From a virus: a stretch of 64,000 nt of DNA. The number at the start of each line of letters is the position of its first letter. Within the stretch, counting starts at the first letter, position 1. Location: positions 64,001 to 128,000 of IMG/VR virus record IMGVR_UViG_3300037400_003528. One strand, given 5' to 3'. Position numbers and translations under genes: made by a program. Shown piece after piece: positions 6,740-58,915 of the stretch. Below the pieces are notes generated by a model. That model was not told the DNA's origin. It made no database searches and saw nothing but the letters and a program-made list of their open reading frames with translations.

Positions 6740-6741
6740 AT

Positions 6742-22842: not shown

Positions 22843-23325
22843 TTAAAAAGCACTTTTATGCTATTTAATATAAGCCATACCTAAACAAATTGCATCACTT
22901 ATATCATCATTGACATTTATGCCATAAACCATTTTAACTAAACGTTGACTATTAGCTTTTAAAATTTCTCTTTTAATTCCTGGCCCAGTCTGTATTCCAC
23001 ATAATTTTCGCCAATGTCCAGATACATATAAATTTACTTTATATCCTTGTACACCTAAATCTGTAATTACTCTTCCTTGAAGATATATTAATGCTTTATA
23101 TACAGATTGATTTTGTTTAACATCCTATGGTAAAACTTCTTCCATAACAATATCAGTAGGATTATATTTTTTACAAATTTCTACAATTTTACTACTCATA
23201 TTTTTTATTCTTTTATATACGTTTCGATCATTTTCTATTAAACATTCATAATGTATTAGTTTGCCCTACTAAAATATTGCAACTCCGCTAGATTTAGTAG
23301 AGGCGTCTATCGCTAAAGTTTTCAT
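22843..23325 (-). CDS. RuvC-like Holliday junction resolvase (160 aa, 3 TAG including a TAG-TAG tandem at 23266-23271)
   Basis: The N terminus 'MKTLAIDASTKSSGVAIF' matches the RuvC/YqgF fold signature. RBS 'aaggagg' precedes the start. Confidence 0.65.
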
Positions 23326-23354
23326 CGTTAAAACTACCTCCTTAATCTAATTAG

Positions 23355-23383
23355 AGTATATCAAAAATTTTTAAAAATGTCAA
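23355..23383 (-). promoter_or_regulatory. sigma70-like promoter TTGACA-17-TATACT (minus strand) upstream of the RuvC-like gene
   Basis: Minus-strand reading is 'ttgacatttttaaaaatttttgatatact'. Confidence 0.65.
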
Positions 23384-23436
23384 AAAAATAAGAGGATAGC
23401 AATTTATTAAAATTACTATCCTCTTATTTTTTATTT
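23382..23436. terminator. hairpin terminator (aagaggatag...ctatcctctt) flanked by an A-run and a T-run
   Basis: 10-bp perfect stem with a 16-nt loop; bidirectional. Confidence 0.55.
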
Positions 23437-23868
23437 ACTACCAGTACTACCAAAACCGCCATCGCCGCGGACTGTGTCTGAAAGATTCTAAACCTAATTA
23501 AACTATAAATTATATTTAGGTAATAAAGCAAATTGTGCTATTCTTTCATATGGTTTTATAATTTGAGTTTCATATGAATCATTTTGTAATGAAACTAATA
23601 ATTCTCCCCTATAATCGGGATCAATTACTCCAACACAGTTTGAAGGACGAAGATGTTTTTTTGAAGCAATTCCGCTTCTTGGGAAAATTCCTCCCCAGTA
23701 CTACTTAGGAATCTACATAGCTATTCCTGTTCCAATCATTTTTGAACTATGTGGTGGTATAAGTATATCTTCTGCAATATCTGCATAAAGATCACACATT
23801 GCGGCATCCTAACTTCCGCAATAAGGCGTTTTCGCCGTTTCTGTTAATTTTTTAAAATTAATAATCAT
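23431..23868 (-). CDS. dut: dUTPase (145 aa, 5 TAG)
   Basis: Motifs readable: 'VIDPDYRGEL', 'ERIAQF' and C-terminal 'RGDGGFGSTG'. Confidence 0.8.
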
Positions 23869-24112
23869 ATGATAAAGCTCCTCTATCTTGATAGAAAGGT
23901 AAAAGTCTTCCTTCTGGTTCTATTTCTTTACAAAATTCTTTAACAAGAATAACACGAACCCATTCTTCTTCAGTCTTTTTTCTTTCTTTTACTTCACTGC
24001 TACTTTTAATTACTGTATAATCAGCATTCTTCTTTGCTTCCTATATTAAATTTTGTGCTTCTTTCTAGTTTCCGCAACGATATTGTTCAGTTACTTTTAT
24101 AAGTGTAGTCAT
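23858..24112 (-). CDS. hypothetical protein (84 aa, 2 TAG)
   Basis: RBS 'ggagttaag' precedes the start. The gene overlaps the dUTPase start by 11 nt. Confidence 0.4.
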
Positions 24113-24121
24113 CTTAACTCC

Positions 24122-24373
24122 TTAAATTTTATAACAAAAAACAGTAGGTTCTTTATCTGTATACATACTTTGTTCGATTTTATTTGTTTGTTCTTCAATT
24201 TTTTTTAAAAATTTAATAGGGGCGCCATTTAAATAAACTTTATTTATATCTTTCTCTTTTGCAAAAAAAGTTGGAAGAGAACATAGTGGAATACTTTCTC
24301 GTTTCCGCTATCCATTACTAAAAAAAACTGTTTGATAAAAAGTTCCTATATTTATTTTACATGCTGCTTCCAT
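24122..24373 (-). CDS. hypothetical protein (83 aa, no TAG)
   Basis: RBS 'aaggagat' precedes ATG 24373; the ORF ends at TAA. Confidence 0.45.
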
Positions 24374-24382
24374 AATATCTCC

Positions 24383-24766
24383 TTAACATTCTATAACGGC
24401 ATTATCATATGGAAAAAGATAATAAGCAAAAGGTTCATTATTAATTTTTATCCAAATTTCAAAATTTCCATCAGGTTGCTCTTCAATAGAAAGAATATCT
24501 CCCCTATCTGTGCAACATCCTAAACATTCTTTTGCTGCTATTGCGGGAGGGTTTGGATTTTGATTTTCATACATGTGAAAAATAGTAATATCACTTCTTT
24601 CTCTACAATATAACATACCATATGAATCACATTTCATATTAAAAAAATCTTCTATTTTACACTGGGCGGCCGCCAATTCAAGATGATTCATAGGTTTAAA
24701 TAACTATTTATTAGACATTAATTGTTTATTAGCAGCATATAATGTTCCCATACTAAGTTCTGCCAT
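24383..24766 (-). CDS. hypothetical Cys-containing protein (127 aa, 1 TAG)
   Basis: RBS 'taaggag' precedes the start. The reading extends the supplied ORF 24383..24691 upstream across one TAG. Confidence 0.5.
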
Positions 24767-24777
24767 TTATTTTCTCC

Positions 24778-24963
24778 TTATAATTCTATTTTTTTATATA
24801 AACCGCAATGGCATTCACCGAGTCCTTGCTATCTAAATTCTTTACAAATACATTTAGTATCTTCATTTTTTATTGTTTTACAAGGGCAATACCCATTATT
24901 TGTTTTGAGCATTGCCCGTATCTAATTAGCAAGTTCTTTATCTTCCGTTACTTTTATTATCAT
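24778..24963 (-). CDS. small Cys-rich protein (61 aa, 2 TAG)
   Basis: ATGA overlap with the nrdG stop. Contains 'GYCPCK...CICK...CHCG'. Confidence 0.4.
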
Positions 24964-25436
24964 ATTATTAACCTTTCTGCATATTGATTATTACTAGCTA
25001 AATTTACACCCAATGTTTCATCATAATGTTGCTCTTGATTAGGTATAAATCTTCCATATTTTATAATTATATTATCAAAATTTTTTAAAAAAGTCAAATA
25101 CCATTTAATTTCTTCTTTATTATATCCAGTATAGATTATTATATCATCATTAGATACCTATCTAAATTTTTTAATAAAATCTAGTACCTAATAGAAAGAA
25201 TCAAATGGTTCTAATCCTTGAAAAACAATAGCTTCAGAAATATTATTATTTAAATAACTATTTATAATTTCTTTTATAGGTATATTTATTTTCTTTGCGG
25301 AAGCTAGGTCTGAGTTCTGACAGACCTGTTTCCCGCATTCTTTATCACATTTAAATGTGCAACAAGGCATCATTATTGTCATACAAGGTTTTTTATAATT
25401 TATAAAATCTTCATTTATAATATCAATTACTTTCAT
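24960..25436 (-). CDS. nrdG: anaerobic RNR activating protein NrdG-like radical-SAM enzyme (158 aa, 2 TAG)
   Basis: A Cys cluster 'CTFKCDKEC' and 'FQGLEPF' are present. The gene sits immediately downstream of nrdD with an ATGA overlap. Confidence 0.7.
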
Positions 25437-27385
25437 ACTTTTTTTACCGTTTGATTAATAGGCTCCCAGCGTCGCATTTTATATTCTTTTACTCTTGCAT
25501 TTGACCAAGTATTAATTGGAGTATAAAAACCTACAACACGAGTATATTCTGTTTCAACAGGTTTTCCACAAATTGGGCAAGTTCTTCCATAAAAGGCATG
25601 ATTATCTTCACAAGCCTGAATTTTTGTATTAAAAGCAAAATATGTCACACCAGCATCAGCAATATATTTTACCATTTTATAAGCCATTTTATAAGAATTA
25701 AAAGGAGCATCAATATTAACATGAAGAATAGATCCACCATTGCAAAAACTATCAAATAAAGCCTGTACTCTTATTCTCTCTTGCAATGTAGTTTTTATTC
25801 CTAATGGAATAAATTGATTACCATAAAGAGGTAAATCATAAATTGAAGCATTAGGATAAAAGAACATATCTTTTTTCATAAGTTTTGCGGCGGCAGTTTC
25901 ACCAGGAATTTGTTCTGTATTAATCATATAATCACAATTATAAGTTTCAATAAATTCATCAGCAGTTTGTCTCATTACTTTAAAGATTTTTTCTCCAAAT
26001 TTACTTGCCTTTTCTGTATAAAAATTATTTCCTAAATTATCTTTTTTTACATAATGGAAACGTTTCATCGTTTCATAAATACCAATAAAACCAATAGTAT
26101 TATATAAATGTTCAAAATCAACTAATTTATAAGAAAAATTAGGAAGTAATCCTTTATCTACATCACGTTTAATAATATTACGAACTATATCAAGAGCCTT
26201 TAGATTTAAAAGAACTCGTTTTTCTAACTCTTTAAGATATTCTTCTTCTGAATTTGTATCTAAAGCTAATCGTGCTAAATTAATAGTAGAAACTTTTACA
26301 CTACCAACTTTAAGGGCGGTTCCGCCGATTGAGTTAAAGTAGCCTAAATCTCTTATATCACTTTTTAATCTACAACAATTACTTAAACTATTTACACTGT
26401 CATCTACAAAAATATTACTATCTGACCATATCATATTATGTTTGATAGCCCACTTTGCAAAATCAGAATCAACAAAATCTCCGTTTTGATAAAGTAGTGA
26501 AATAGTATTTACAGGAAATGTAAACATATTTTCACTTCTCGTTTTTGCCATCTATTCCATATACCACTTTTGAAACTCAATAATTTCATCTTCATAATCA
26601 ATCATAAAAGTACCATCTGGAAATTCTGCACCACCAAATAATGCTTCAAAATAAGGTTTATCAAATACTGATGTATTGGTAAATGCGGATTGTTGTCCAT
26701 CACGAACATAAGGTTGATTCACCGCATAAATAAAACGTTGAAAGTTTTGACGCGCGTATCCTTCAGCAGACTCTGATGTAGTTATACCAAGGTAGTCCGT
26801 CTATTTATCTTTATTCCAAAAATAAAACATATATGGAATTAAGTTAGGTAAACCTACTGCTCCACTACTTCGATTACTTGCAAAACCAATAAATTCTTTT
26901 ACAAAGTCAACAAAAGTAGTAAGATGCTTTGCGGGCTTATAATTAAACGGATCTCCTATGAAATAAAGACCTTTTTCCGCTAAATCTTTTAAATCGTAAG
27001 CAAAACAATAATGTTTAAATGTAGATGTATCTGAATCATGTAAATATAATTCTCCAACCCACTCCGCACGTAACCATTCATTAGCTGTTTTAAATCCATA
27101 TTTTTTTTGAATTTCATAATAAATTTTATTAAAAGCTAAAAGTTTTCTATGTGGCTTAGGCATTTCAGAAAGTAATGTCACCATATCTTTTCGTCTAACA
27201 TTACTATTTCCATCTATTGAAACATTAGCAACTGTTTTTTCATCAATAAAATTATCTATAAAATCAGTATAACTTAATTGATCATCATCAAAACCATTGA
27301 TTCGTGCAATCTATGTTCCAAACTATCCTTGTAATTTATTATATTGTGTTGTAAAATTTTTTCCAAGTCTAATAGGTATTTGCAT
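25433..27385 (-). CDS. nrdD: anaerobic ribonucleoside-triphosphate reductase NrdD (650 aa, 4 TAG)
   Basis: ORFs 25433..26551 and 26801..27184 share a frame and are bridged by TAG-containing sequence. The C-terminal glycyl-radical region reads 'RVVGFYTP' next to a Zn site 'CPICG'. Confidence 0.85.
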
Positions 27386-27594
27386 TAGTTATAATTCTCC
27401 TTTAACCATTGAATAGCTTGTCCAAAATCTAAAATAGTATTATTTATTTCAAGGGCGGGTGCTGATAAAATACCTAACTATAACATTTTATCAATATCCT
27501 AATTTATTATATATGATATATTATTTTGATTTAATTTTTTCTACAATACTTTACATTTTGGACAATGTGTTGTATATAATATGATATTCATCAT
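27385..27594 (-). CDS. nrdH: NrdH/glutaredoxin-like redoxin (69 aa, 3 TAG)
   Basis: N-terminal 'MMNIILYTTHCPKCK' carries a CxxC thioredoxin-fold motif. The gene is adjacent to nrdD. Confidence 0.7.
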
Positions 27595-27637
27595 TTTTCT
27601 CCTTATTATATTTTTAAAATTATAAAATATAAATTAA

Positions 27638-28192
27638 TTATTTTTGTTCATTTCGAATAATATGAAACAAATCAGATATAATAGGTTGTACCTAATTTGT
27701 TTCATTTAAAATTACTTTATAAGAAAAAGGAAGATTTTTAAAATCTTCTTTATCAGTAAAAAAACGTCTACATATTTCTGAACAATCAGGAGAACTCTAT
27801 CGTGATAATTGTCTTAATAATCTAATTTTATCAGAACAATGTATCATAATAGGTATACACTAGATATTCTATTTCTATAAAATCTAATTAATAGCTCTTG
27901 GAGAAAAAACACCAATATTAATTTTATCTTCTTTTAAATCATCTATTGATGTACCATACCACCAGTTATTGAAACATTGAGACTATATCCACTATTTGTT
28001 TTTAAACTACTAAATAGTTAAAAAATGATAATGGACATTCTATTTTTCATATACTCGCGGAGGTCTTGTAGTAGATGTAATAATCTTATGTAAATGAATT
28101 TTTCCATAAATAGTTTCAAAAAGTCTGGAAAGAATATAATCCTTTCCAGACCCTGCTGGTCCACATAAAGCGATAATTTTATATTTACTCAT
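27638..28192 (-). CDS. guanylate-kinase-like dNMP kinase (184 aa, ~9 TAG including a TAG-TAG tandem)
   Basis: P-loop 'GPAGSGKD' and 'TTRPPR' motif are present. The start overlaps the DNA polymerase stop. Confidence 0.7.
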
Positions 28193-31100
28193 TTATTGCC
28201 TCCATTCCATATCTTGTTGAAGTTAGTTCAATTCTTCTTCCATTTACATTTGTTATCAAATAAAGCTGATGCCCGCCAGTACTTTTATATTTTTTAGCTA
28301 CAAAAGTATCATCACGTCTATATCCTGTAACTAATAATTTATTACCACGAGTAAACCAACCTTTTTCTTTTACTTTTTTGACACCTTCTTCATTCACTTC
28401 ACTTATCTGTCTATTGAACATTGCATAATAATCACGAGTAAATTTAACATTAACAGTTCCTGTTGGTGTTAAAAGAGTAACTATATGACGGGTATCATTT
28501 TTATCAATAACAGTTCCCGCAATTCTTTGTAACTTATAAATAGGAATTTGTTTACCATTACGTTTAAAAAAGTAATCAACCACAGGAGAAGAAGAAAGAT
28601 TATTAAAATCTACAATCCCATAAAAACTATTATCAATATTTTCTAATTCGTGAGCATGATAATAAAAACATAAGGATTTCATTTCCCAGAAAGAAATATT
28701 TCCTTCTGCATATTTATTCCATTCTTCTTCAAAAAGTTTCAAATTTAATTGTTGTAAAACTTCTTGTTGTTCACATTGTAACCATGCTCGTACGTTATCC
28801 ATAATTTTATTATAAATTTTGTCCCATGTTTTTTGTTTTATTACAAAACAATTATTTATAATATCAACATCTTCCATATCGAAATGATCAGAATAAAAAT
28901 TCATACTATATTGTTCTGGCATAACATAATTATCTTGCCATTTCTTTGTTTTTAAATATTTATTAAAAAAGAAAACTCTTTTTTCAAAATCTAAAGATTC
29001 AGGAAAAAGATTATAATTAATTAAAGTTGATACATTTTGAAGATTTAATCGTGTTTTTGGGTTACTTGTAATAGATAAATAATATACCATAGCCCATATA
29101 CGAGGATTTACATTATTTTTTTTAGCTTCTTCTTTTGATAATTCATCAAAAGCACCTGCTTTAATTAAACTAATCATGGCGGTTTTATTTAATTTACACC
29201 TATTCATAAAATCTTTAATAGATTCATATGGACGATTTTGTTTAATCTGGTCAACAACAGATGCTCCTACATTACTTAATGCCTTCATACCGAATAAGAT
29301 TTGATTATTTTCTACATCGGGTTTAAAACCATAATCTGATTTATTAATATCTACTAAACTAACTTCAATACCCGCATTTATAATTTCACCTAATGCTTTT
29401 GCAACCTTACCATAATCAGTTACATTTTCTTTTTTCTTAATAGGCGTATCATCTTCATCATACTCAACATCATCTTCTTCTTCAAGACTTCCACTATTTA
29501 CTACAAGACATGCGGCATCCCAATAAATTGGACTCCAATGTGTAGCAATATAAGCTGTTTGGAAACCGATAAAACTATAAGCAAGAGCATGAATGATAGA
29601 AAATGAGTATCCCATCTGAGGACCGACACCATTTTCCCATACGTATTTACCAAGTTTTTCTGAAGATGCCCGCTCTAAGATTTTTTGATGTAATTCTGGA
29701 ATTTTACTCATTTGTTTCTTACCAACAATTTTTCTTGCGGCGTTTGCTTCCGCTAAGGTAAAGTTACAAATATTCTTATCCATAAGCATTAACATCAATT
29801 GTTCTTGCGAAGGGGGAACTCCATACGATGATTTAAAATACGGTTCAAGATAATCTCTTTCGTCTGGAGTTAAACCAAATATATACATTTCTTTATACCA
29901 AAGGTCAAGATTATTCTTATAACGGATATATTTTTCCATCGGTGTTTCCGCACCCTTTTCCGCAGTCATTAATCTCATAAGACCATTGGCATCAGTTAAC
30001 TCAAGAATTGTTTTCGGTTTAATTTTTTTAGCAGCCTGACTACCAACTTCTGAATCAAACTGAAACACATTTATTACTGAACCATTTTGAATCGCATCCC
30101 ATACATCTTTATCATTTATAGGTAAAACATTTGGATGAAAATATTTATCATAAACAGGACGTAGATTAATTCCAGTATCTTCTATTTCTCCATCCTCTTG
30201 TAAAAATCTAATTGCTTGAGCGAGTTTATCTTGAACTTCTGTAACCAGAAAGTCATATTTAACAAGACCTGCCGCTTCACAATCATGTAAATCATATTGT
30301 GTAATTATTTCTCCCTTTGGAGTTTTCATGAAGCACCCAAATTCATATGGATCTTCGTCAAAAAGAATTACACCAGAAGCATGACTACTACGTTTATTTA
30401 CAAGACCAACAATACCAAAAATAATATCAAGAAGTCCAGGATATTCATTTACTTCTTTAACAAAAACGTGAACAGGTTCTCTATCTTTATCTTTGTTACC
30501 ATTTATAACATCTTCAAGAGGCCACAAAAATCCTCTCTCTGAAGGAATTAATGATGCTATATACTGTGCTTCATCATTATCAATACCATCAGGAAATTCT
30601 TCTGACCTATATCCGCGGCAAGCGGTAAGAACTGCGGACTTAGTTTGTTCTGTACCATATGTGGCTACTAAAGTACAACCTAGATTCTTTCGTGATAAAT
30701 CATCTATATCAGGATTAAATCTGCGGCCGCGCTCTTCTTTTATCTTTCTTACTATTGTTCCTTTTTTCGATGGACAAATATCAATATCAATATCACCTAA
30801 CTCAGTTCTTTCATCATTCATATAACGAAAGAAAGGTAGATTCCATTCAATTGGATCAAGCTGAGTGATACCTAAAAGATAATGATTTAATGCGGCACAT
30901 GATGAACCTCTTCCGGCACCGACAAGACTTCCGCATTCCCATATCATATCAATGTAATATTTTAATGTAATAGGATATTTGAACATATTAGTACCAAGTT
31001 TTTCTCCTATTACTTTTTTAACTCTTGCTTCTTCTTCTAGTTGTTCATAATATTTATCGTTGGTATGATTATAATGTATATGGTCAAACTTTTCACATAA

Positions 31101-47564: not shown

Positions 47565-47761
47565 GCTTCATAATCCTCATAATTTCTATTAACAGATTCT
47601 CCGCAAAAAGGACAAATAGCTGTAATGTACAACTCATTTCTCCAATTATTACGAGTGTAAGAAGAGTTGTCTGCTTCAAAAATACAATCACATTTAGAAC
47701 AAATAAAACGTTTTGTTTCGTTCATTTTTTTTAAAGAACCATCTTTAATAATTTTAATCAT
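47561..47761 (-). CDS. small Zn-ribbon protein (66 aa)
   Basis: 'CSKCDC...CPFCG'. Confidence 0.45.
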   Translation of the reverse strand: MIKIIKDGSLKKMNETKRFICSKCDCIFEADNSSYTRNNWRNELYITAICPFCGESVNRNYEDYEA

Positions 47762-52096: not shown

Positions 52097-53995
52097 TTAA
52101 ATAAGACATTGTGCTTCTATACTGTGTTCTTTAATAAATACTTTTCTCGGAATAATAGCAGTTCCCATTAAATCATCAAATAATTTATCTGTTTCTTCGC
52201 TATCATCAATCGTAATTTGTTTAATAATTCTATTAGCAGGATTTGTAAGAGTCTCTTCTATTTGTTCAACATCCATTTCTCCTAATCCTTTCATACGATT
52301 GACTTGATACTTTCCCGTATAAGTTTTTCTAAATGCTTCAAGGTCATCATCATTCTTTAAATATTTATAACCTTTATTTCCACCAAGAGTAATTTTATAA
52401 AGAGGTGGAACTCCAGCATAAATGATACCGTCATAAATCAATTGAGGACAAAAGTTCCAAATAAAAGTATAAAATAGATTTTTAATATGAGCACCGTCTA
52501 CGTCAGCGTCACTCATAATAATAATTTTACCATAGCGGAGTCCATCACGGTCATATGTAACCCGCATTGTTTTTGTATCAATCTTTAAACCAAACGCTTC
52601 AATCATAGTCATAATCTCAGCATTTTTTTGAATCTTATCTAAGGTAGCTTTTTGTGTATTAAGGATTTTACCACGGACAGGCATTACAGCTTGAAATTCA
52701 TTATTACGTGCCGTTTTTAAACCACCTGCCGCACTATTTCCTTCAACAATATAAATTTCACATCTTTCTCTATCTTCACTATAGCAGTCCGCAAGTTTAC
52801 TATCAAATTTTAAAGCCTTTTCTTTTTTCTTTCCTTGCTCTCTTGCTTTTTCTCTTGCCTTTTTAGCAGCTTCTCTTGCTTTTTTAGCATTAATAGCTTT
52901 GTCTGCAATAAGTTTAATTTCTTTTTCATTATTAGCTAACCAATATTGAAGATTTTCAGTTAAAGCTACATTAAAAGGTTTCATTTCAATTTTAGTAATA
53001 CGAGTTTTAACTTGTGCATCATATGATACATTTGGAGCAGTAATATTAAAAACAATATACATACCTTCTTGTATATCATCACCAGTTAAATTTTCATCTG
53101 TGGATTTAAGCCATTTCTTTTCTTTAAAAAATTTGTTAAATTCACGAGTAATAATAGATTTTACTTGTGTAATATGTTGTCCAGTTTCAGTTAAGCCAGT
53201 ATTAACATATGGAACAATAGTAGATGAATAATTAGAAGTATAGGTAAGAACCATATCCATTTTATTCTTACCTTCTGCAAAATTCATATCAAATCTATTA
53301 TTAATAAGTTCTTTATTTCCAACTGCGGCATCAACTAAATCATTTAAACCTTTATTAGATATATAGTCATATATCTTACCATTCTCATTTAAATGAATTG
53401 TTAATCCGGGGCATAGACAAGAAATAGTTTTAAATAAAGAATGAATTTTATTACTTTCTACTTCTGTATGAGTAAAAAATTCCTCTGAAGGTTGCCATTC
53501 TACTAATGTACCAGATACGCCGCCTGCGCCAGTACTTCTATTTTGAAAAACACCTTCTTTAAAATATATTTCTTCCCATTCTCCGTTTCTTATAGTTTTA
53601 ACTCTTAGCCAATGAGATAAAAATGTAGTAATTTTAGAACCAATACCAAAAGAACCTAATGAAGTTCCTTCATAAGTTCCATCTTCTCTATATTTACCAG
53701 AAGTATTAAGAACACTAAAAGCAGCTTCAAGAATTGTTTTATCGTCTTCTCTAAAATGATTTGGAAGAAAACCTTGTCCATAATCTCTTACAGCAAAAGT
53801 ATCTCCAATTATCGTTACATCAATTTGATTACCATGTCCAAGTCTAAATTCATCAATTGCATTAGAAACAATTTCTATGAGCAACTGAGTTGAATACGTA
53901 GTATCACCTGCATATACACCTGGTTTTAATCTGGTAAATTGTAATGGATCTAATGATTCTATTGATTGTTCTGTATATAAGGTTTTATCTATCAT
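52097..53995 (-). CDS. type II DNA topoisomerase ATPase/TOPRIM subunit (GyrB/T4 gp39+gp60-like), 632 aa
   Basis: Supplied ORF with a GHKL ATPase N terminus and TOPRIM 'EGNSAAGG'. Confidence 0.85.
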   Translation of the reverse strand: MIDKTLYTEQSIESLDPLQFTRLKPGVYAGDTTYSTQLLIEIVSNAIDEFRLGHGNQIDVTIIGDTFAVRDYGQGFLPNHFREDDKTILEAAFSVLNTSGKYREDGTYEGTSLGSFGIGSKITTFLSHWLRVKTIRNGEWEEIYFKEGVFQNRSTGAGGVSGTLVEWQPSEEFFTHTEVESNKIHSLFKTISCLCPGLTIHLNENGKIYDYISNKGLNDLVDAAVGNKELINNRFDMNFAEGKNKMDMVLTYTSNYSSTIVPYVNTGLTETGQHITQVKSIITREFNKFFKEKKWLKSTDENLTGDDIQEGMYIVFNITAPNVSYDAQVKTRITKIEMKPFNVALTENLQYWLANNEKEIKLIADKAINAKKAREAAKKAREKAREQGKKKEKALKFDSKLADCYSEDRERCEIYIVEGNSAAGGLKTARNNEFQAVMPVRGKILNTQKATLDKIQKNAEIMTMIEAFGLKIDTKTMRVTYDRDGLRYGKIIIMSDADVDGAHIKNLFYTFIWNFCPQLIYDGIIYAGVPPLYKITLGGNKGYKYLKNDDDLEAFRKTYTGKYQVNRMKGLGEMDVEQIEETLTNPANRIIKQITIDDSEETDKLFDDLMGTAIIPRKVFIKEHSIEAQCLI

Positions 53996-54122: not shown

Positions 54123-54220
54123 AAAGAAAATAAATGACAAAAGTGCGTCTACATTTATATACATATATATCAACAGACAAAAATAAGTGTGTAGTAATAT
54201 TACTACACACTTATTTTTTA
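54123..54220 (+). ncRNA. candidate ~100-nt small RNA (promoter to strong terminator), no convincing RBS/ORF
   Basis: Bounded by the 54089-54116 promoter and an 18-bp perfect hairpin plus T6. Confidence 0.3.
54181..54220. terminator. strong bidirectional terminator (18-bp perfect stem aaataagtgtgtagtaat/attactacacacttattt)
   Basis: Palindrome flanked by an A-run and a T-run. It lies downstream of the endolysin on the minus strand. Confidence 0.8.
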
Positions 54221-54322
54221 TATTATTTCAACATATCTGAAATTAACAAATCCATAAATTTTATTATTAATTTTCACATAATACCAAGTAGTACCATTGC
54301 TTGCTTGAATACTATCACAAAT

Positions 54323-55687
54323 CTAAATAATTTTGTCTTTATAGATATAAGGAATACTTTTTAAAGGATTAAATTCAACCCCTGCCCAGCTTCTTACATA
54401 TAGTGCATTTGCTGTAACTTTAGCTTTAGCATAAGTATCTCGGGCGGGAGACACTTTACCTGTTCTTGTAAATTTAGTTTTAGATGTTGCAATTAATTTT
54501 TTATCAGTATTAACGGGTTTTTCGGGCATCACCTTCTCCGAAGATTGAGGTGCTGCCGCCGCATTCGCATATTTAGGTATAGCATATCCACGAATATTAC
54601 CATTAGCAACTTGTAATGTACGTCGCGCCACCACTCCGCCATTACCTGTATTTCCTTCTATTGTTATGATAATATTTCCCTCAACCTTTTCAATAATACC
54701 AATATGATCTGCAAAACCGTCATTTGGTTGAGTGCCGTCATCCCAATTATAGGTTATAATCCAGCCTGGTTGAGGAGTAACTGAACCATTCTATTCCCAA
54801 ATACCAGCTTTTTTAAACAATTGAATATGTCTCTAAACACCACATTCAGTTCCACCAATTAAATCGACGGCGTTATTCTTAATAAAAGCCGCAGAAAGAG
54901 TAGTATCACAATAGTCATCAGTATATTTAACTTTATAACCAACGGCAAGAGGTTTATGATTATTATAAATATCAATAATATCTCTATGTGTTTGTTTAGC
55001 CATACTTTTTCCAATCCATTCTGCCATTGTGTTAATTATATCTTGCGCAGAAGTACCTTTAGTCTAAACAGATTTTTCCTCTTTCTTTTCCTATTGCTCA
55101 TAGTAGAAATTCATATCTACATTACCTGAAATACCATTTACTTTACCTTTACTTGTATATTGATGATAAACGCAATCATAATGAGGTGTAGTATTATAAT
55201 CCGCTAACCATATAATATATTTTTTTATGGTTGCCGCATCATACCAATTTTTATAATAGTCTTGATTTAAATAAAAACCTACTTTATATCCTTTGCTTTT
55301 AATATAATCACAAAAAACATTGGTAAAATTAATGCAATCAGTTTTTGTTAACTTAACTTTTTTTTCTCTGGCATTATTAACCGTATCATATTCAAAATCG
55401 TAAAAAACAATTATGTCTTTTCCTAACCCTGCTTTCTAAATATTTTTTATACAACTTTTTGCTTCTTCTATTGCATCATTTTTATTTAAAGGATAAGCAA
55501 AATGATAAACACCATGAATATTTATATTAGCTTCTTTAAATTTTTTTACGTTGTTTAAAAAATATTTATCAATTTGTTTTCTATATCCCTAACGAATAAT
55601 AACAAAGTTTATACCATCTTTTTTTACTTTTTCGGCATTTATATTATTACCTTGATGCTAAGAAATATCAATTCCTTTTAAAGCCAT
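54323..55687 (-). CDS. endolysin: GH25 muramidase + CHAP-like peptidase + SH3b-like cell-wall binding (454 aa, several TAG)
   Basis: N terminus 'MALKGIDIS.HQGNNINAEKVKKDGINFVIIR.GYRKQ...GVYHFAYP' is GH25-like. The middle 'GWIITYNWDDGTQPNDGFADHIGIIEKVEGNIIITIEGN' is CHAP-like. The C terminus is SH3-like. RBS 'gaaaggagac' precedes the start. Confidence 0.75.
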
Positions 55688-55704: not shown

Positions 55705-55740
55705 TAAAAAAGCGGGAGATCACTCTCCCGCTTCTTTTTG
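55705..55740. terminator. GC-rich hairpin (agcgggaga/tctcccgct) overlapping the holin stop codon
   Basis: 9-bp stem with loop 'tcac', flanked by A/T runs. It sits between the holin and endolysin genes. Confidence 0.65.
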
Positions 55741-55956
55741 TTCTATCATATTTTCTGAAAGTTTAACTTCTGGAAGTCCTGCTAAACTAGTCATAATTGA
55801 AAGGATACCTGCTGTACAAGCTACCGATGCTACATAAGCCCAATCTACTTCTCTAAAAGCTGCTCCCACCGTAATCATAGAGGCAAAAGTTTGAGCAAAA
55901 GTTTTTAATGCTCTAATACCAGCCGCCTTAATCCATATTTTAGATTTTTCACTCAT
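55720..55956 (-). CDS. holin (78 aa, two predicted TM segments)
   Basis: The hydrophobic segments 'MITVGAAF' and 'VASVACTAGILSIMTSLAGL' are separated by a short linker. The gene is immediately upstream of the endolysin. Confidence 0.6.
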   Translation of the reverse strand: MSEKSKIWIKAAGIRALKTFAQTFASMITVGAAFREVDWAYVASVACTAGILSIMTSLAGLPEVKLSENMIEQKEAGE

Positions 55957-56002: not shown

Positions 56003-56470
56003 TTACTTTTTATTATTTTGACCTTTCTTTTCTTTAATTTGAGTTAAAAGAAGTTTTCTATGTTCTAAATCTTTATCAATATTTTGGATTTGTTCTTTTA
56101 AAAATTTAATATTATTGGTATGATTTCTAATCATAAAATAGAATCTATTTTCAAGTAATCTTGTTATAGCAAAACAAGTATAATTATCTCCATTATAATT
56201 TTTTACAAAAGGTAAAATATCTTTCTTAACTTCTCTTTCTATTGTTTGGAGTATTAGTCTTTCTCGTTTTAATTCTTCTTTATAAAATTTTTTTGTTGCT
56301 TTCATTTCAGCAATAGATAATCCAGAAAGTTTACTTTGAACTTCTTTATCTTCAGGATGGACTTTTGCTACTCCCTTAAATATACCTCTTTTAGTTTTTA
56401 TTGTTACAATAGATACTCCTGTATTTGGGTTAAAATTAGAATTAAAAAGTTTTGTTTTTAATTGTCTCAT
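56003..56470 (-). CDS. hypothetical protein (155 aa), possibly a regulator
   Basis: Supplied ORF; basic and Lys-rich. Confidence 0.35.
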   Translation of the reverse strand: MRQLKTKLFNSNFNPNTGVSIVTIKTKRGIFKGVAKVHPEDKEVQSKLSGLSIAEMKATKKFYKEELKRERLILQTIEREVKKDILPFVKNYNGDNYTCFAITRLLENRFYFMIRNHTNNIKFLKEQIQNIDKDLEHRKLLLTQIKEKKGQNNKK

Positions 56471-56576
56471 TATTTTTTTTGCTCCTTATTTTTATAATAT
56501 AATTTTTAATAATATATAAACTCATTTCAACAAAAAGAGTTCCAAAAATTCCTACTAAAACTGGATTTACAATCAT
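56442..56576 (-). CDS. small hydrophobic peptide (44 aa)
   Basis: 'MIVNPVLVGIFGTLFVEMSLYIIKNYII...'. ATGA-coupled to the phosphoesterase stop. Confidence 0.3.
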   Translation of the reverse strand: MIVNPVLVGIFGTLFVEMSLYIIKNYIIKIRSKKNNETIKNKTF

Positions 56577-57115
56577 TCTTTTTTCTCCCTATATTTATTA
56601 ATATCTTCAATTATTTGTTCTATTGATACAGGATAACAATTATGAGCATCCATTGCTACATTATAAATACTATATTGTCCAAATTCAAATTTATTAGAAC
56701 TATGAGTATGTCCAGATAGATTCCAAAAGAAACGTTTTTCTTCAAAATTACCTACAAGAGTAGGATAATGAGAAAGATAAAACATTTTCTTTTTATTATA
56801 TTTATAGATTGAAGCAAAACCAAGATATGTCATACCATATTCTGTTTGATATTTATTAAGTTTGTTATTTGTATCATGATTACCCCAAATAACATTTTTT
56901 TCTCCATTTAATACTTTATAGACACGATTCCATTCTTTTTCATTTCCGCTCATACATAAATCGCCAAGAATATAAACAGTATCTTTTGGAGTAATAATAC
57001 TATTCCATCTTTTTAAGATTTCTGTATCATGTTCTTCTATTGAAGAAAAACCGCGCGGCTGCCAGAGAAAATTTTTATCGTGTCCAATATGGAGGTCTGC
57101 TGTAAAATAAATCAT
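56573..57115 (-). CDS. calcineurin-like metallophosphoesterase (180 aa), putative 3'-phosphatase of the RNA-repair cassette
   Basis: 'DLHIGHD', 'GDLCMSGNE' and 'GNHD' motifs. Confidence 0.7.
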   Translation of the reverse strand: MIYFTADLHIGHDKNFLWQPRGFSSIEEHDTEILKRWNSIITPKDTVYILGDLCMSGNEKEWNRVYKVLNGEKNVIWGNHDTNNKLNKYQTEYGMTYLGFASIYKYNKKKMFYLSHYPTLVGNFEEKRFFWNLSGHTHSSNKFEFGQYSIYNVAMDAHNCYPVSIEQIIEDINKYREKKE

Positions 57116-57118
57116 TTT

Positions 57119-57607
57119 TTAATTCCTTTTTAGTGGAACCAATTGATCGTTAACATAAGTAAAAATCATATCAAATGGTTCATTATAAGTAGGTGGTTTT
57201 AAATGTGTATACATATTATATATCTCGTTGGGCGGGACATAAGTTTTAGTTCCTTTTCTAAGGTCATTTCTTTCTAAGCATACTTCAATCGGAGTATTAA
57301 TATATATTGCAATAATATTAGTTTTATGACGATTAATATGGAGTTGATTAAGAAGTTTATAACGACTTTTTGGATTTAAATGGGTAGCATCCGCAATAAC
57401 ATCTTCCCCATTATTAATATGAAGATTTATTTCTTCAAGAAAAGTTTTATACACTTCTTTTTCTTTTGCGAAATAATTATCGTGTTCATTTAATAATGAA
57501 AATCTAATGACATCTCTTGATATATGAATTTTTTTAGGTTGAGCTTTTGCAAAAGTAGTTTTTCCAGACCCAGGAACTCCTATCATAATAAATAAATTAT
57601 TTTTCAT
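57119..57607 (-). CDS. P-loop polynucleotide 5'-kinase (Pnk kinase-domain-like), 162 aa
   Basis: Walker A 'GVPGSGKTTFA', a size typical of the T4 Pnk kinase domain, and adjacency to the phosphoesterase and RNA ligase. Confidence 0.6.
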   Translation of the reverse strand: MKNNLFIMIGVPGSGKTTFAKAQPKKIHISRDVIRFSLLNEHDNYFAKEKEVYKTFLEEINLHINNGEDVIADATHLNPKSRYKLLNQLHINRHKTNIIAIYINTPIEVCLERNDLRKGTKTYVPPNEIYNMYTHLKPPTYNEPFDMIFTYVNDQLVPLKRN

Positions 57608-57633
57608 TTCTTCTCCTTTATTATAACATAAAA

Positions 57634-57672
57634 TTTTATAAAAGGCAAAAAAGTTATAATAACCTTTTTGCC
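57634..57672 (-). terminator. hairpin + T-rich terminator between the RNA ligase and kinase genes
   Basis: Sequence 'ggcaaaaa...tttttgcc'. Confidence 0.5.
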
Positions 57673-57679
57673 TTTTATT

Positions 57680-58915
57680 TTAATTATGATATGTCATCAA
57701 AAATTCATTAGAAACAGCTTTAAAAGATTGAGTTCCATCTTCTGACCGAAATACAATACCTTCACGCATATCTTCGTCAATTTGAGATTTATCAGTAGCA
57801 TAATCAAGCAATTCTTCAACAGTATCAGGGAGAATGAATTTACTATTTACAATAGGGACACAAGGAATATTGTAATAATCTTCAAGCAGTTCTCTCATTT
57901 TAAGAGTATTAAATCTTCCTTTGTCAGAAGTAATAAGATTAAATGCCATAAAATCATGACCAGTTAGATGATAATCTCTTTTTTGTACTCCTGCTCCATA
58001 AGTTTCACCCTGGATAGTAATCCATTCTGCGGCCGGAAATAACGATAGCATTTCAATAAGAGCATGTTCAATATGATACTTTTCCGCCATTTCTGTATAA
58101 ATATTAGTTTCATAAAAACATGTTTTATCAGGCTTATCAAAGCAGACATTACGAGAACAAACATAAAATTCATTTTTATGAGGCCACTTTCCACGTTTGA
58201 TAGTAAAAGTAGTTGAAGAACCATCAATCTTTTCTGTTGCAATCCAAGGGTTCTTATCTTTAAGAATCCAAGGCATATTTTGGATTCTTTCTTCATCAGT
58301 TTTCTTTACCCAAGTGGGCCAGCCTGTTTTGTCTCGCTTTCTACCAAAGAAAATAAAAAGAAGTTTCTTACCCCAGTCGCGCTTCATAAGCCAGCGGAAA
58401 GGCTGCTTTGAAAACAATTTTCCATTACGCTGTGCCATTTTTTTATATTTATCTACAGAAGAGGTCTTACGTTCATTATCTTCTGCTACATAATAAGTTA
58501 CTCCAAGCTGTTTAGTAAGAAAACGAGAATCATTTCCAGCATTGTGTTCAACCCCATTAGAGTCATGAATAGAATAACCATAATTATGATTTTCAATAGT
58601 CCAATTAAGATTAGCAGCAGATATAAGTAAACCTTGACTTAATGATTTACACATCTTTTGAGTCTTTATACGATATTTCTTTTTAACAAGAAAAGTCATA
58701 TCAGTAAAAGGTTCTACTTCAGGAAGTTTTGAATCAATCTCAAAGTAAATAGCGGGGTCACCCACTTTAAATTCACCCTTACCGACAACGATAGTCCATC
58801 CGCCAACGTGCGCCAATTCAACTCTATCGTATCCTTCAATTGGAGTAATATCATCAATAGTTACGACATACGCAAGTTCTCTTTCGTTAGTTTTTGGATT
58901 AAGCAAAGTAGTCAT
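57680..58915 (-). CDS. RNA ligase (nucleotidyltransferase motif I KxDG), 411 aa
   Basis: 'WIATEKIDGSSTTFT' gives motif I. The remainder is covalent nucleotidyltransferase-like. Confidence 0.7.
   Translation of the reverse strand: MTTLLNPKTNERELAYVVTIDDITPIEGYDRVELAHVGGWTIVVGKGEFKVGDPAIYFEIDSKLPEVEPFTDMTFLVKKKYRIKTQKMCKSLSQGLLISAANLNWTIENHNYGYSIHDSNGVEHNAGNDSRFLTKQLGVTYYVAEDNERKTSSVDKYKKMAQRNGKLFSKQPFRWLMKRDWGKKLLFIFFGRKRDKTGWPTWVKKTDEERIQNMPWILKDKNPWIATEKIDGSSTTFTIKRGKWPHKNEFYVCSRNVCFDKPDKTCFYETNIYTEMAEKYHIEHALIEMLSLFPAAEWITIQGETYGAGVQKRDYHLTGHDFMAFNLITSDKGRFNTLKMRELLEDYYNIPCVPIVNSKFILPDTVEELLDYATDKSQIDEDMREGIVFRSEDGTQSFKAVSNEFLMTYHN

What the first reader, a model, noticed from the sequence alone, without database searches (positions are those of the whole stretch)
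22843..58915. Sharp partition of genes into TAG-free and TAG-rich classes
The core replisome and RNA-repair genes contain no TAG at all. These are the 1317-aa DnaE-type polymerase, Dda-like helicase, primase, LigA, both topoisomerase subunits, RNA ligase, Pnk kinase and phosphoesterase, about 5000 codons in total. The DnaB-like helicase has one TAG, in its first 24 codons. Interleaved genes on the same strand carry TAG every 15-60 codons: RuvC-like, dUTPase, NrdDGH, dNMP kinase, DHH, Sak4-like, the GIY-YIG nuclease, the Vsr-like endonuclease, the endolysin and all structural genes. This suggests the TAG-free set can be translated before a suppressor is available, while nucleotide-metabolism and recombination genes are delayed to the recoded phase.
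Basis: seen in the sequence. Interest (0 to 1): 0.75.

Follow-up and report, generated by a model that had tools for sequence, protein, structure and literature searches.

The report
Replisome genes kept free of recoded TAG
In this gut or rumen phage the stop codon TAG is read as an amino acid (apparently glutamate, not the usual glutamine), and selection keeps a fixed set of replication and RNA-repair genes free of it, probably so they can be translated before the phage switches the code.

Summary
Across 60 genes (20,463 codons) there are 293 in-frame TAGs, very unevenly spread (dispersion p = 5e-30). DnaE, SF1 helicase, primase, LigA, both topoisomerase subunits, RNA ligase, Pnk kinase and phosphoesterase have none, although their GC and off-frame TAG counts are ordinary.

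The split is inherited. In 31 dereplicated TAG-recoded relatives the core genes carry 5 TAG against 5,222 GAA/GAG, and the other genes 508 against 3,563. A sister lineage recoded TGA to Trp and spares the same genes, and so does the distant phage phAss-1.

The timing is still only inferred, and there are exceptions: the holin and an abundant virion protein are TAG-poor.

What looks new is that TAG here behaves as Glu, not Gln. Alignments, controls and composition all point that way, and two close relatives carry CUA suppressor tRNAs, one of them with a tRNA-Glu-type body.

Verdict: a known kind of system, a new variant, moderately interesting.

The parts
28185..32138 (-). DnaE-type DNA polymerase III alpha, 1317 codons, 0 TAG (TAG-free core)
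   Evidence: Pfam PHP, DNA_pol3_alpha, finger and HHH_6 domains. It has 108 Glu codons and 58 off-frame TAG but 0 in frame. In 31 representative recoded orthologs there is 1 TAG in 36,914 codons.
33392..34576 (-). SF1 (Dda/RecD-like) helicase, 0 TAG
   Evidence: Pfam AAA_30 and UvrD_C_2. 27 orthologs, 10,517 codons, 0 TAG.
37164..38315 (-). DNA primase, 0 TAG
   Evidence: phrog_47 DNA primase, E = 6e-38. 19 orthologs, 7,010 codons, 0 TAG.
38895..40433 (-). DnaB-like helicase with a single TAG at codon 24, inside the conserved N-terminal domain
   Evidence: Pfam DnaB and DnaB_C. The TAG is shared only with the closest relatives (the L001 and L002 contigs). 17 orthologs carry 3 TAG in 8,326 codons.
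40440..40940 (-). Conserved 166-aa protein (phrog_4680), 0 TAG
   Evidence: 15 orthologs, 0 TAG.
42107..43081 (-). Conserved 324-aa protein of unknown function, 0 TAG
   Evidence: The phAss-1 homolog is also TAG-free.
45588..47564 (-). NAD-dependent DNA ligase (LigA), 0 TAG
   Evidence: Pfam DNA_ligase_aden, OB and BRCT domains. 4 orthologs, 0 TAG.
47758..49797 (-). GyrA/ParC-like topoisomerase subunit A, exon 2, 0 TAG
   Evidence: Pfam DNA_topoisoIV positions 76-430 plus the GyrA C-terminal repeats. Exon boundary from comparison with uninterrupted relatives.
49798..50985 (-). Mobile intron in gyrA carrying a LAGLIDADG endonuclease ORF (50081-50893, 1 TAG). The two TAGs formerly counted in the GyrA ORF lie here.
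   Evidence: The insertion is absent from L081-L085. Pfam LAGLIDADG_3. No Rfam intron model reached threshold.
50986..51287 (-). GyrA-like exon 1, 0 TAG
   Evidence: Pfam DNA_topoisoIV positions 1-75.
52097..53995 (-). GyrB/ParE-like topoisomerase subunit B, 0 TAG
   Evidence: Pfam DNA_gyraseB, Toprim and GyrB_C.
56003..59508 (-). Head of the minus-strand module: three small ORFs, RNA ligase (57680-58915), Pnk-type kinase (57119-57607), metallophosphoesterase (56573-57115) and a 155-aa ORF. All have 0 TAG.
   Evidence: Pfam RNA_ligase, AAA_33 and Metallophos; counts.
55720..55956 (-). r1t-type holin, 0 TAG. This is an exception to 'lysis genes are recoded'.
   Evidence: Pfam Phage_r1t_holin and phrog_443. 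3 orthologs, 0 TAG.
54218..55687 (-). Endolysin (GH25 + CHAP + GW), 8 TAG, flanked by palindromic hairpins
   Evidence: Pfam. Hairpins at 55710-55733 and 54179-54218.
35265..37079 (-). DHH/RecJ-like nuclease, 13 TAG. It is the most consistently recoded gene in the replication module.
   Evidence: Pfam DHH and RecJ_OB. 23 representative orthologs carry 138 TAG against 768 GAR, and 21 of the 23 have TAG. The phAss-1 homolog has 6 TAG.
41024..42010 (-). AAA_24 (Sak4-like) recombinase, 3 TAG
   Evidence: Pfam AAA_24. 11 of 12 representative orthologs carry TAG.
44018..44962 (-). GIY-YIG domain protein with a coiled-coil N-terminus, 17 TAG in 314 codons
   Evidence: Pfam GIY-YIG. 4 orthologs carry 57 TAG.
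22843..28192 (-). Tail of the minus-strand module, where every gene carries TAG: dNMP/guanylate kinase (11), NrdH-like (3), NrdD (4), NrdG (2), four small ORFs, dUTPase (6), RuvC-like (4)
   Evidence: Pfam; counts. The kinase's conserved 'EEF' and 'FLE' motifs are encoded with TAG.
1..22798 (+). Late structural module, TAG-rich. The 2921-aa tape-measure protein has 92 TAG and the 1502-aa tail protein has 19. The exception is the abundant virion protein at 4486-5517, with 1 TAG.
59672..64000 (+). Second late module (936-aa protein and a 693-aa baseplate or tail protein that runs off the window's right edge, where 506 of its codons are visible), with 17 and 12 TAG
   Evidence: The continuation is on Logan contig L122.

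Best explanation
The window comes from a roughly 140-kb siphovirus-like phage of Bacillota. It belongs to a large cattle and gut family that contains standard-code, TAG-recoded and TGA-recoded members, very probably the 'Agate' clade of Borges et al.

In this lineage UAG is a sense codon that behaves as glutamate. It is decoded by a phage-encoded tRNA with a CUA anticodon. That tRNA sits in a tRNA array inside a block of small early-type genes. At least one version has a tRNA-Glu-type body (the Glu-specific D-arm, U11-A24, and a 4-nt variable loop). It lacks the U1-A72 pair that amidotransferases require, so it would stay charged with Glu.

Purifying selection keeps a fixed set of genes free of UAG: DnaE, SF1 helicase, primase, DnaB (nearly), LigA, topoisomerase II A and B, the RNA ligase/Pnk/phosphoesterase RNA-repair set, small early ORFs and the holin. 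These genes can therefore be translated by the unmodified host machinery, where RF1 reads UAG as stop.

Genes that carry UAG yield full-length protein only once the suppressor is abundant: RecJ-like, Sak4, RuvC, the nucleotide-metabolism genes in this lineage, the endolysin, and the packaging, head and tail genes. In that way UAG acts as a gene-by-gene translational gate rather than a block-wise one.

What is shown: the partition, its conservation, its independence from which stop codon was reassigned, the Glu-like behaviour of TAG, and the existence and position of the suppressors in relatives.

What is inferred: the temporal order, charging of the suppressor by host GluRS, and the way RF1 competition is overcome.
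For: Partition and statistics.

Conservation: in 31 dereplicated recoded genomes the core genes have 5 TAG against 5,222 GAR, and the other genes 508 against 3,563 (Fisher p = 8e-181). A gene's TAG share in the window predicts the share in distant recoded relatives (rho = 0.55, p = 0.008).

Same partition with TGA->Trp in L014, L021 and L024: core TGA/TGG is 1/38, 0/36 and 0/38, against 8/9, 7/10 and 3/14 in the other genes. The same partition appears in phAss-1, whose DnaE is only 34% identical.

Interleaving: the middle of the module alternates more than chance predicts (16 runs against 10.9 expected, P = 0.014).

TAG = Glu:
- Residues opposite TAG are E 34-39% and Q 4-8%, and a calibrated likelihood puts E well ahead of Q.
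- In close orthologs the codons opposite TAG are GAA+GAG 42% and CAA+CAG 14%. Controls give E 40%, Q 6% opposite true Glu codons and Q 39%, E 9% opposite true Gln codons.
- Glu content is 8.07% in TAG-free genes and 6.20% in TAG-containing genes, rising to 8.20% when TAG is counted.
- Conserved Glu positions of guanylate kinase and dUTPase are encoded by TAG.

Suppressors: L178 18623-18695 (intronless) and L175 about 18319-18458 (64-nt intron). The D-arm motif of the L175 suppressor occurs in 112 bacterial tRNA-Glu genes and in no other isotype.

Identity rules for GluRS and the amidotransferase: PMC9976931. Published model.
Against: - No suppressor was found in the window, nor in 80% of the closest relative's contig. 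The suppressors seen are in relatives with 84-88% nucleotide identity to that contig.
- The L178 suppressor lacks the Glu-specific D-arm and has C1-G72.
- The anticodon nucleotides (C34, A36) differ from strong GluRS determinants, so charging with Glu is not assured.
- The Gln signal opposite TAG (13-15%) is higher than opposite true Glu codons (6%), so mixed or lineage-variable decoding is not excluded.
- Exceptions to a pure timing model: the abundant virion protein and the holin are TAG-poor; DnaB has a TAG; TAG-containing genes lie upstream of the tRNA array; two tail-fibre ORFs in a relative are TAG-free.
- Near-consensus sigma-70 promoters precede genes of both classes.
- 92 TAGs in one protein require near-perfect suppression, and no mechanism for that was identified.
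Confidence: 0.62

Rival explanations
1. Cost-of-decoding model. UAG is a slow, leaky or ambiguous codon because it competes with RF1 and may be decoded as a Glu/Gln mixture. Selection removes it from genes where truncated or heterogeneous products are most harmful or where output must be high, whatever their time of expression.
For: The abundant late virion protein at 4486-5517 has 1 TAG in 343 codons, and its orthologs have 6 in 3,849. The holin is TAG-free. Near-consensus promoters precede both classes. There is an excess Gln signal opposite TAG.
Against: The 2921-aa tape-measure protein carries 92 TAG and TerL carries 21, so suppression must be efficient and accurate enough for essential, long, stoichiometric proteins. 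Replisome proteins are not high-abundance. The small early ORFs, which are neither long nor abundant, are also TAG-free.
Confidence: 0.2
2. Anti-competitor or containment model. Recoding mainly keeps late and accessory genes from being expressed in the wrong context, such as by co-infecting standard-code phages, after transfer, or in a non-permissive host. The replisome is left in the universal code to keep it exchangeable by recombination with standard-code relatives.
For: The family mixes standard, TAG and TGA members that share close replisome genes. Homing endonucleases and introns show frequent exchange in the replisome region. Two TAG-free tail-fibre ORFs sit in a recoded relative.
Against: It does not explain why RecJ-like, Sak4 and RuvC, which sit among the replisome genes, are consistently recoded, nor why the small early ORFs are spared. 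There is no direct evidence for it.
Confidence: 0.1
3. Historical artefact. The TAG-free genes are recent acquisitions from standard-code sources, or they evolve too slowly to have accumulated TAG.
For: DnaE, LigA and the gyrase subunits are bacterial-type genes. The two TAG-free tail-fibre ORFs in L091 may be such a case.
Against: TAG-free status persists across orthologs that have diverged to 59-63% protein identity, with 5,222 Glu codons and only 5 TAG. GC, GC3 and off-frame TAG match the rest of the genome. NrdD is more conserved than DnaE (median 80% against 62% identity) yet carries TAG. GAG->TAG would be synonymous, so protein conservation cannot block it.
Confidence: 0.03

Closest known systems
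Alternatively coded phages with standard-code early or replication genes (Borges et al. 2021/2022), in particular the 'Agate' clade
   Same: Gut or rumen origin, genomes of about 127-154 kb, and a mix of standard, TAG-recoded and TGA-recoded members in one clade. Replication machinery is in standard code. Structural and lysis genes are recoded in several modules spread across the genome. Some members encode a suppressor tRNA. The same 'early genes use the host code, then switch' model applies. A close relative fetched here carries that study's style of name (Cattle_ERR2019377_scaffold_1186659).
   Different: That work reports only TAG->Gln and TGA->Trp, whereas here TAG behaves as Glu. The partition here is resolved gene by gene inside the replication module (RecJ-like, Sak4, RuvC and nucleotide-metabolism genes are recoded between TAG-free replisome genes). 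It is also shown to be the same under two different reassignments. Membership in Agate was not tested phylogenetically.
phAss-1 / proposed Phassvirus group (Babkin et al. 2023, PMC10607447)
   Same: A siphovirus-like phage of about 136 kb with DnaE, a tape-measure protein of about 3,150 aa, NrdDG, dUTPase, a large tRNA array and tRNA-Sup(CUA). TAG occurs in virion genes and 'several DNA-processing enzymes'. The same TAG-free replisome set is seen.
   Different: DnaE is only 34% identical and GC is 44.5% against 28%. The suppressor there resembles the phage's own tRNA-Gln (81%), and the authors assign TAG->Gln. Two of its suppressors sit next to nrdD rather than only in the array.
Genetic code 15 phages (crAss-like, Lak) with TAG->Gln, validated by metaproteomics (Peters et al. 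2022, PMC9523058)
   Same: In-frame TAG is concentrated in late genes, and the hosts use the standard code.
   Different: The amino acid differs (Gln there, Glu-like here). The host phylum differs (Bacteroidota there, Bacillota inferred here). The phage families are unrelated.
Peritrich ciliate nuclear code (NCBI table 30: TAA and TAG -> Glu); from my own knowledge
   Same: UAG is read as glutamate.
   Different: It is a eukaryotic nuclear code in which TAA is also reassigned. It applies genome-wide, with no partition and no code switch.

Membership tests
Stop-codon-recoded ('alternatively coded') phage with code switch | Many genes are interrupted by one in-frame stop codon, and reading it through restores full-length homologs | tested here: met
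   Long-ORF coverage rises from 38 to 67 kb with TAG read-through. The read-through ORFs match Pfam and PHROG families end to end.
Stop-codon-recoded ('alternatively coded') phage with code switch | A subset of genes is compatible with the standard code | tested here: met
   24 of 60 genes (5,786 codons) have no TAG. All genes end in TAA or TGA.
Stop-codon-recoded ('alternatively coded') phage with code switch | A phage-encoded suppressor tRNA matching the recoded stop | tested here: inconclusive
   There is none in the window, and none in 113.6 kb of the closest relative's 142-kb contig. It is present in two relatives at 84-88% nucleotide identity, L178 and L175.
Stop-codon-recoded ('alternatively coded') phage with code switch | The host uses the standard code, and recoded genes are expressed later than standard-code genes | not testable with these tools
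   The host is unknown. Bacillota is inferred from the r1t holin, the GH25/CHAP/GW endolysin, the SPbeta-like DnaE and the tRNA-Glu motif hits. No expression data are available.
Genetic code 15 (TAG -> Gln) | TAG positions align with Gln in homologs | tested here: not met
   Residues opposite TAG are E 34-51% and Q 4-15%. The spectrum matches the Glu control and not the Gln control. The composition test also favours Glu.
Agate clade (Borges et al.) | Placement in the clade on a terminase phylogeny or by ANI to named members | not tested
   The support is circumstantial only: genome size, source, mixed codes, and a close relative whose ENA record name follows that study's scheme.
Phassvirus (phAss-1 genus) | Nucleotide identity of about 80% or more and synteny with phAss-1 | tested here: not met
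   DnaE is 34% identical at the protein level, other proteins are 22-41% identical, GC differs by 16 points and the gene order differs.
tRNA-Glu-derived suppressor | Glu-type body: the D-arm GGUCAARCGGUU(N)AAGAC with U11-A24, a 4-nt variable loop (no nt 47), and no U1-A72 | tested here: met
   Met for the L175 spliced tRNA(CUA). The motif hits 112 tRNA-Glu genes and 0 other isotypes in bacterial genomes. The variable loop is AGAU and the terminal pair is G1.U72. The L178 suppressor shares only the 4-nt variable loop and the absence of U1-A72. Identity rules are from PMC9976931.

The most novel reading that the evidence does not exclude
This phage family has reassigned UAG to glutamate. It uses a tRNA-Glu-derived CUA suppressor that host GluRS charges and that escapes transamidation because it lacks U1-A72. 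This route to recoding is available in Bacillota, which make Gln-tRNA indirectly. It would be the first UAG->Glu code reported for a virus or a bacterial system. Within one family, independent UAG->Glu and UGA->Trp reassignments spare the same replisome and RNA-repair genes. That would show that the partition is a selected regulatory architecture rather than a by-product of how the code changed.
Probability: 0.55. Interest if true: 0.78.

Novelty: new variant of a known kind. Interest (0 to 1): 0.58.

Why it matters
The partition itself confirms and sharpens a published model of phage code switching. It shows that selection acts gene by gene, and identically under two different reassignments. 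That is the strongest comparative evidence obtainable without an experiment that recoded stops act as a translational gate.

If the Glu assignment holds, three things follow:
- Annotation pipelines that translate every TAG-recoded phage with table 15 put the wrong residue at about 2% of positions in the recoded genes of this abundant rumen and gut family.
- The rule that 'phages only do TAG->Gln and TGA->Trp' would no longer hold.
- The amino acid chosen for a reassigned stop would be linked to the host's aminoacylation pathway (indirect Gln-tRNA synthesis in Bacillota).

It would also provide natural CUA suppressors with Glu identity for genetic-code engineering.

Tried and rejected
- Base composition or gene length as the cause: rejected. 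GC, GC3 and off-frame TAG are alike in both classes.
- Gln normalisation of TAG, as in the literature: replaced by Glu normalisation once alignments showed Glu.
- ORF coverage as a way to classify the relatives' code: too noisy. Replaced by homology-anchored counts.
- Rfam on the window: no tRNA and no intron family hit.
- Walking with exact DNA probes: the loci returned were too short.
- ARAGORN at relaxed thresholds: only noise.
- Whole-sequence identity for typing the suppressors: not discriminating, with all isotypes at 0.65-0.74.
- The phAss-1 composition test for the meaning of its TAG: inconclusive.
- A search for a catalytic Glu encoded by TAG: TerL has no PDB match by sequence and its Walker-B residues use GAA/GAG. 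GH25 alignments put X opposite variable positions.
- Sigma-70 promoter scans: counts equal the shuffled background, and near-consensus sites precede both gene classes.
- A promoter motif taken from the tRNA array: only 4 weak matches in the window.
- HGT or slow evolution as the cause of TAG-free status: rejected (see rivals).

Full report
**1. What the window is**

The 64-kb window has 28% GC and no tRNA gene. GC skew and ORFs divide it into three parts:
- a plus-strand late module (1-22.8 kb);
- a minus-strand replication and nucleotide-metabolism module (22.8-59.5 kb);
- a second plus-strand late module (from 59.7 kb).

Treating TAG as sense raises long-ORF coverage from 38 to 67 kb, and treating TGA as sense does far less. 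The read-through ORFs match protein families end to end. They are RuvC-like, dUTPase, NrdG, NrdD, NrdH-like, a guanylate/dNMP kinase, DnaE, an SF1 helicase, a DHH/RecJ-like nuclease, primase, DnaB, an AAA_24 (Sak4-like) protein, GIY-YIG proteins, LigA, GyrA- and GyrB-like subunits, a GH25/CHAP endolysin, an r1t-type holin, a metallophosphoesterase, a Pnk-type kinase and an RNA ligase.

**2. The observation**

I curated 60 genes (20,463 codons), which contain 293 in-frame TAGs. Of these genes, 24 (5,786 codons) have none. The distribution is hugely over-dispersed: p = 5e-30 for all genes and p = 3e-34 for the minus-strand module alone.

The TAG-free genes are not short. DnaE has 1317 codons, with 108 Glu codons and 58 off-frame TAG trinucleotides. 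They are also not compositionally odd (GC 0.28-0.34; off-frame TAG 0.039 per codon against 0.047).

- In five relatives gyrA is uninterrupted. The window carries a 1,188-bp insertion (49798-50985) with a LAGLIDADG ORF and in-frame stops, which makes it a mobile intron. The two TAGs at the start of the 709-aa ORF lie inside it, so both exons are TAG-free.
- The DnaB TAG at codon 24 is real. It lies in the conserved N-terminal domain and is shared by the closest relatives.
- TAG density in the recoded genes spans 1 per 17 codons to 1 per 160.
- The abundant virion protein at 4486-5517 (phrog_2729) has only one TAG. From its position just before the chaperone-like genes and the tape-measure gene it is probably the major tail protein.
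- The holin is TAG-free, while the adjacent endolysin has eight TAGs.

**3. The partition is inherited, not accidental**

DnaE, LigA and three other proteins recovered more than 150 related loci from IMG/VR. Many lie on 130-165 kb contigs, and the closest is IMGVR_UViG_3300021399_000006 (DnaE 92% identical).

I split ORFs only at TAA, found orthologs by BLASTP, and counted in-frame TAG and TGA within the aligned regions. The family contains standard-code members, about 46 TAG-recoded loci and three TGA-recoded loci.

After dereplication to 31 representative TAG-recoded genomes:

| Class | Codons | GAA/GAG | TAG |
|---|---|---|---|
| Genes TAG-free in the window | 68,782 | 5,222 | 5 |
| Other genes | 55,527 | 3,563 | 508 |

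The odds ratio is 0.007 and Fisher p = 8e-181. These genomes are related, so the p-value overstates independence, but the effect size does not depend on it. Most of the five exceptions lie at extreme termini and are probably outside the true CDS.

The degree of recoding is also heritable. A gene's TAG share in the window correlates with its share in 21 distant recoded loci (rho = 0.55, p = 0.008).

NrdD is more conserved than DnaE yet carries TAG, so slow evolution does not explain TAG-free status. Because GAG->TAG would be synonymous, only selection against the codon itself can keep 5,222 Glu codons free of it.

**4. Independence from the reassigned codon**

In L014, L021 and L024 the in-frame stop is TGA. 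It sits at columns that are almost invariantly Trp in the rest of the family. Within each of these genomes:

| Genome | Core genes, TGA/TGG | Other genes, TGA/TGG | Fisher p |
|---|---|---|---|
| L014 | 1/38 | 8/9 | 1e-4 |
| L021 | 0/36 | 7/10 | 1e-4 |
| L024 | 0/38 | 3/14 | 0.03 |

The recoded genes are again RuvC, RecJ-like, the dNMP kinase and a 127-aa protein.

The complete genome of phAss-1 (OQ749652) is only 34% identical in DnaE and has 44.5% GC, yet it shows the same split. DnaE, helicase, primase, both topoisomerase subunits and the 324-aa protein homolog have 0 TAG. The RecJ-like, tape-measure, tail and GIY-YIG genes carry TAG.

**5. Arrangement along the module**

In transcription order, the minus-strand module starts with eight TAG-free genes (small ORFs, RNA ligase, Pnk, phosphoesterase, holin). 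It ends with ten TAG-containing genes (dNMP kinase, NrdH, NrdD, NrdG, small ORFs, dUTPase, RuvC). The middle alternates more than chance predicts (16 runs against 10.9 expected, P = 0.014). The partition there is gene-specific, not block-wise.

Terminator-like hairpins are enriched in 40-59.9 kb (17 found against 5.3 expected). Strong ones sit at six junctions between TAG-free and TAG-containing genes. Near-consensus sigma-70 promoters, however, precede both DnaE and the recoded DHH and RuvC genes. Transcription signals therefore do not clearly separate the classes. This is weak evidence either way.

**6. What TAG encodes**

The literature assigns phage TAG recoding to Gln. Borges et al. state that they observe only TAG->Gln and TGA->Trp.

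Here four independent lines point to Glu:
- **Family alignments.** Residues opposite TAG are E 34%, K 11%, D 10% and Q 8%, against backgrounds of E 7% and Q 3.5%. For the window's own TAG positions the figures are E 39% and Q 4%. A likelihood calibrated on the same alignments ranks E far above Q and D.
- **Close orthologs (75% identity or more).** The codons opposite TAG are GAA 29%, GAG 12%, CAA 11% and CAG 3%. Opposite true Glu codons the spectrum is E 40%, D 11%, K 8%, Q 6%. Opposite true Gln codons it is Q 39%, K 11%, E 9%.
- **Composition.** GAA+GAG is 8.07% of codons in TAG-free genes and 6.20% in TAG-containing genes. Adding TAG gives 8.20%. Adding TAG to Gln instead would overshoot (2.97% against 5.52%).
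- **Conserved positions in solved homologs.** In yeast guanylate kinase, 'vsvDEfk...nnEfiE' aligns with 'ltiXXfk...nkXwiX'. In dUTPases, 'gsEdaa' and 'avEip' align with 'gsXdaa' and 'amXip'.

The Gln signal is about twice that of the Glu control. CAG->TAG transitions could explain this, but some Gln insertion cannot be excluded.

I found no report of UAG->Glu in a phage in the searchable literature. A Lak-phage paper only notes occasional alignment of TAG with E.

**7. The suppressor**

Neither the window nor any locus within 10 kb of DnaE, LigA, the baseplate protein or the head genes has a tRNA.

I walked along the closest relative's contig and covered 15.2-128.8 kb of its 142 kb. That stretch holds a single tRNA-Lys. 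It also revealed a second minus-strand block of small ORFs, almost all TAG-free and with higher GC.

In close relatives this block leads into a tRNA array. Two genome-sized ENA contigs were reached through a small ORF embedded in the array. Each carries 20 or more tRNAs (counting the intron-containing suppressor in L175), and each has a CUA-anticodon tRNA immediately upstream of tRNA-Ser(GCU):
- an intronless one in L178 (18623-18695);
- one with a 64-nt insert between anticodon positions 34 and 35 in L175 (about 18319-18458).

Both genomes are TAG-recoded and are 84-88% identical in nucleotide sequence to the closest relative over the shared block.

The spliced L175 tRNA has the D-arm GGUCAAACGGUUUAAGAC. 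A scan of bacterial genomes for this motif returned 121 matches. Of these, 112 lie in tRNA-Glu genes (UUC or CUC) and none in any other isotype. The tRNA also has U11-A24 and a 4-nt variable loop (AGAU), which are the 'augmented D-helix' and 'no nucleotide 47' determinants of GluRS. It has G1.U72 instead of the U1-A72 pair that amidotransferases need (PMC9976931).

The L178 suppressor is less diagnostic. It has C1-G72, A11-U24 and a 4-nt variable loop, and its best bacterial match is tRNA-Glu at 0.73, only marginally above other isotypes.

By contrast, phAss-1's first suppressor is 81% identical to phAss-1's own tRNA-Gln(CUG). This is consistent with TAG->Gln in that group.

My inference is that the suppressor is glutamylated by the host GluRS. 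In many Bacillota this enzyme is non-discriminating and tolerates variation at anticodon position 36. The charged tRNA is then not transamidated, so Glu is inserted. This step is inferred, not shown.

**8. Interpretation and novelty**

That is the model Borges et al. proposed for alternatively coded phages. Their 'Agate' clade matches this family:
- cattle, pig and tortoise sources;
- genomes of about 127-154 kb;
- standard, TGA-recoded and TAG-recoded members;
- replication machinery in standard code;
- several recoded modules spread across the genome.

One relative fetched here even bears that study's naming style. The phenomenon is therefore known.

My analysis adds four things:
- The spared set is fixed gene by gene inside the replication module. 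It includes the RNA-repair genes and the holin.
- RecJ-like, Sak4 and RuvC are consistently gated.
- The same set is spared under two different reassignments.
- The amino acid is apparently Glu, with a Glu-type suppressor.

The timing remains an inference, and there are real exceptions:
- an abundant late virion protein is TAG-poor;
- the holin is TAG-free;
- DnaB has a TAG;
- TAG-containing genes, including an Apyc1-like protein, lie upstream of the tRNA array;
- two tail-fibre ORFs in a relative are TAG-free.

These exceptions leave room for a cost-of-decoding component.

I rate the finding as a new variant of a known kind, with interest 0.58.

Noticed in passing
window 49798-50985 (-): The gyrA-like gene is split by a 1,188-bp mobile intron carrying a LAGLIDADG endonuclease ORF (50081-50893). 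Five relatives have the uninterrupted gene. No Rfam intron family reaches threshold, so the intron class is unknown.
   Followed up: partly
window 51512-52084, 32413-33384, 152-1168; loci L042, L043, L045, L048, L054: Free-standing homing endonucleases (GIY-YIG+NUMOD3, HNH, LAGLIDADG-like) sit between replisome or head genes. Several relatives have about 1.2 kb of extra sequence inside DnaE (matches spanning 5.1-5.2 kb instead of 3.95 kb), which suggests further introns or inteins.
   Followed up: no
window 55720-55956 and 54218-55687 (-); hairpins 55710-55733 and 54179-54218: The holin is TAG-free while the adjacent endolysin has 8 TAGs. The endolysin is bracketed by two long palindromic hairpins, as if it were an insulated, separately gated unit.
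   Followed up: partly
window 4486-5517 (+): An abundant virion structural protein (phrog_2729, probably the major tail protein) is nearly TAG-free: 1 TAG in 343 codons, and 6 in 3,849 across its orthologs. It lies in an otherwise TAG-rich late module and has a higher GC (0.36).
   Followed up: partly
L014, L021, L024 (IMG/VR 3300045988 contigs): A sister lineage of the same family uses TGA->Trp instead of TAG recoding. The TGAs sit at invariant Trp columns and show the same gene partition.
   Followed up: yes
L175 ~18319-18458; L178 18623-18695: Suppressor tRNA(CUA) genes lie at the same array position in two relatives. One is intronless. The other is interrupted by a 64-nt insert between anticodon nucleotides 34 and 35, which is too short for a group I intron, so how or whether it is spliced is unknown.
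   Followed up: partly
L164 12765-12836; L163 16585-16656: A conserved Gln-like tRNA (U1-A72) has an 8-nt anticodon loop (UUUUUGAC). ARAGORN calls a 4-base anticodon. It could be a frameshift-type or otherwise unusual decoder.
   Followed up: no
L175 4071-5801; L178 4399-6156: An Apyc1-like (anti-Pycsar) metallo-beta-lactamase-fold protein with a CW_7 domain lies just upstream of the tRNA array in the early-type block. It carries 6-9 TAG, which is unexpected for an anti-defence gene if recoded genes are late.
   Followed up: no
window 54089-54116 (+): A perfect sigma-70 promoter with an extended -10 (TTGACA-16-TG-TATAAT) lies on the strand antisense to the replication module. It points into the endolysin gene.
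   Followed up: no
L091 16692-20961 (contig IMGVR_UViG_3300021399_000006, ~124-128 kb): Two tail-fibre ORFs (831 and 570 aa) have no TAG at all inside a TAG-rich late module. They may be recent acquisitions from a standard-code phage.
   Followed up: no
L086-L088 (phAss-1, OQ749652): phAss-1 has three CUA suppressors of different types: one 91 nt long with a long insert and 81% identical to its own tRNA-Gln, one with a U1.C72 mismatch, and one inside the array. A composition test could not decide what its TAG encodes, so the published TAG->Gln assignment is plausible but I could not verify it.
   Followed up: partly
window 56573-58915 (-): An RNA ligase, a Pnk-type kinase and a phosphoesterase lie together at the head of the minus-strand module, all TAG-free. 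This looks like a tRNA-repair set, which could protect phage or host tRNAs (including a suppressor) from anticodon nucleases.
   Followed up: no
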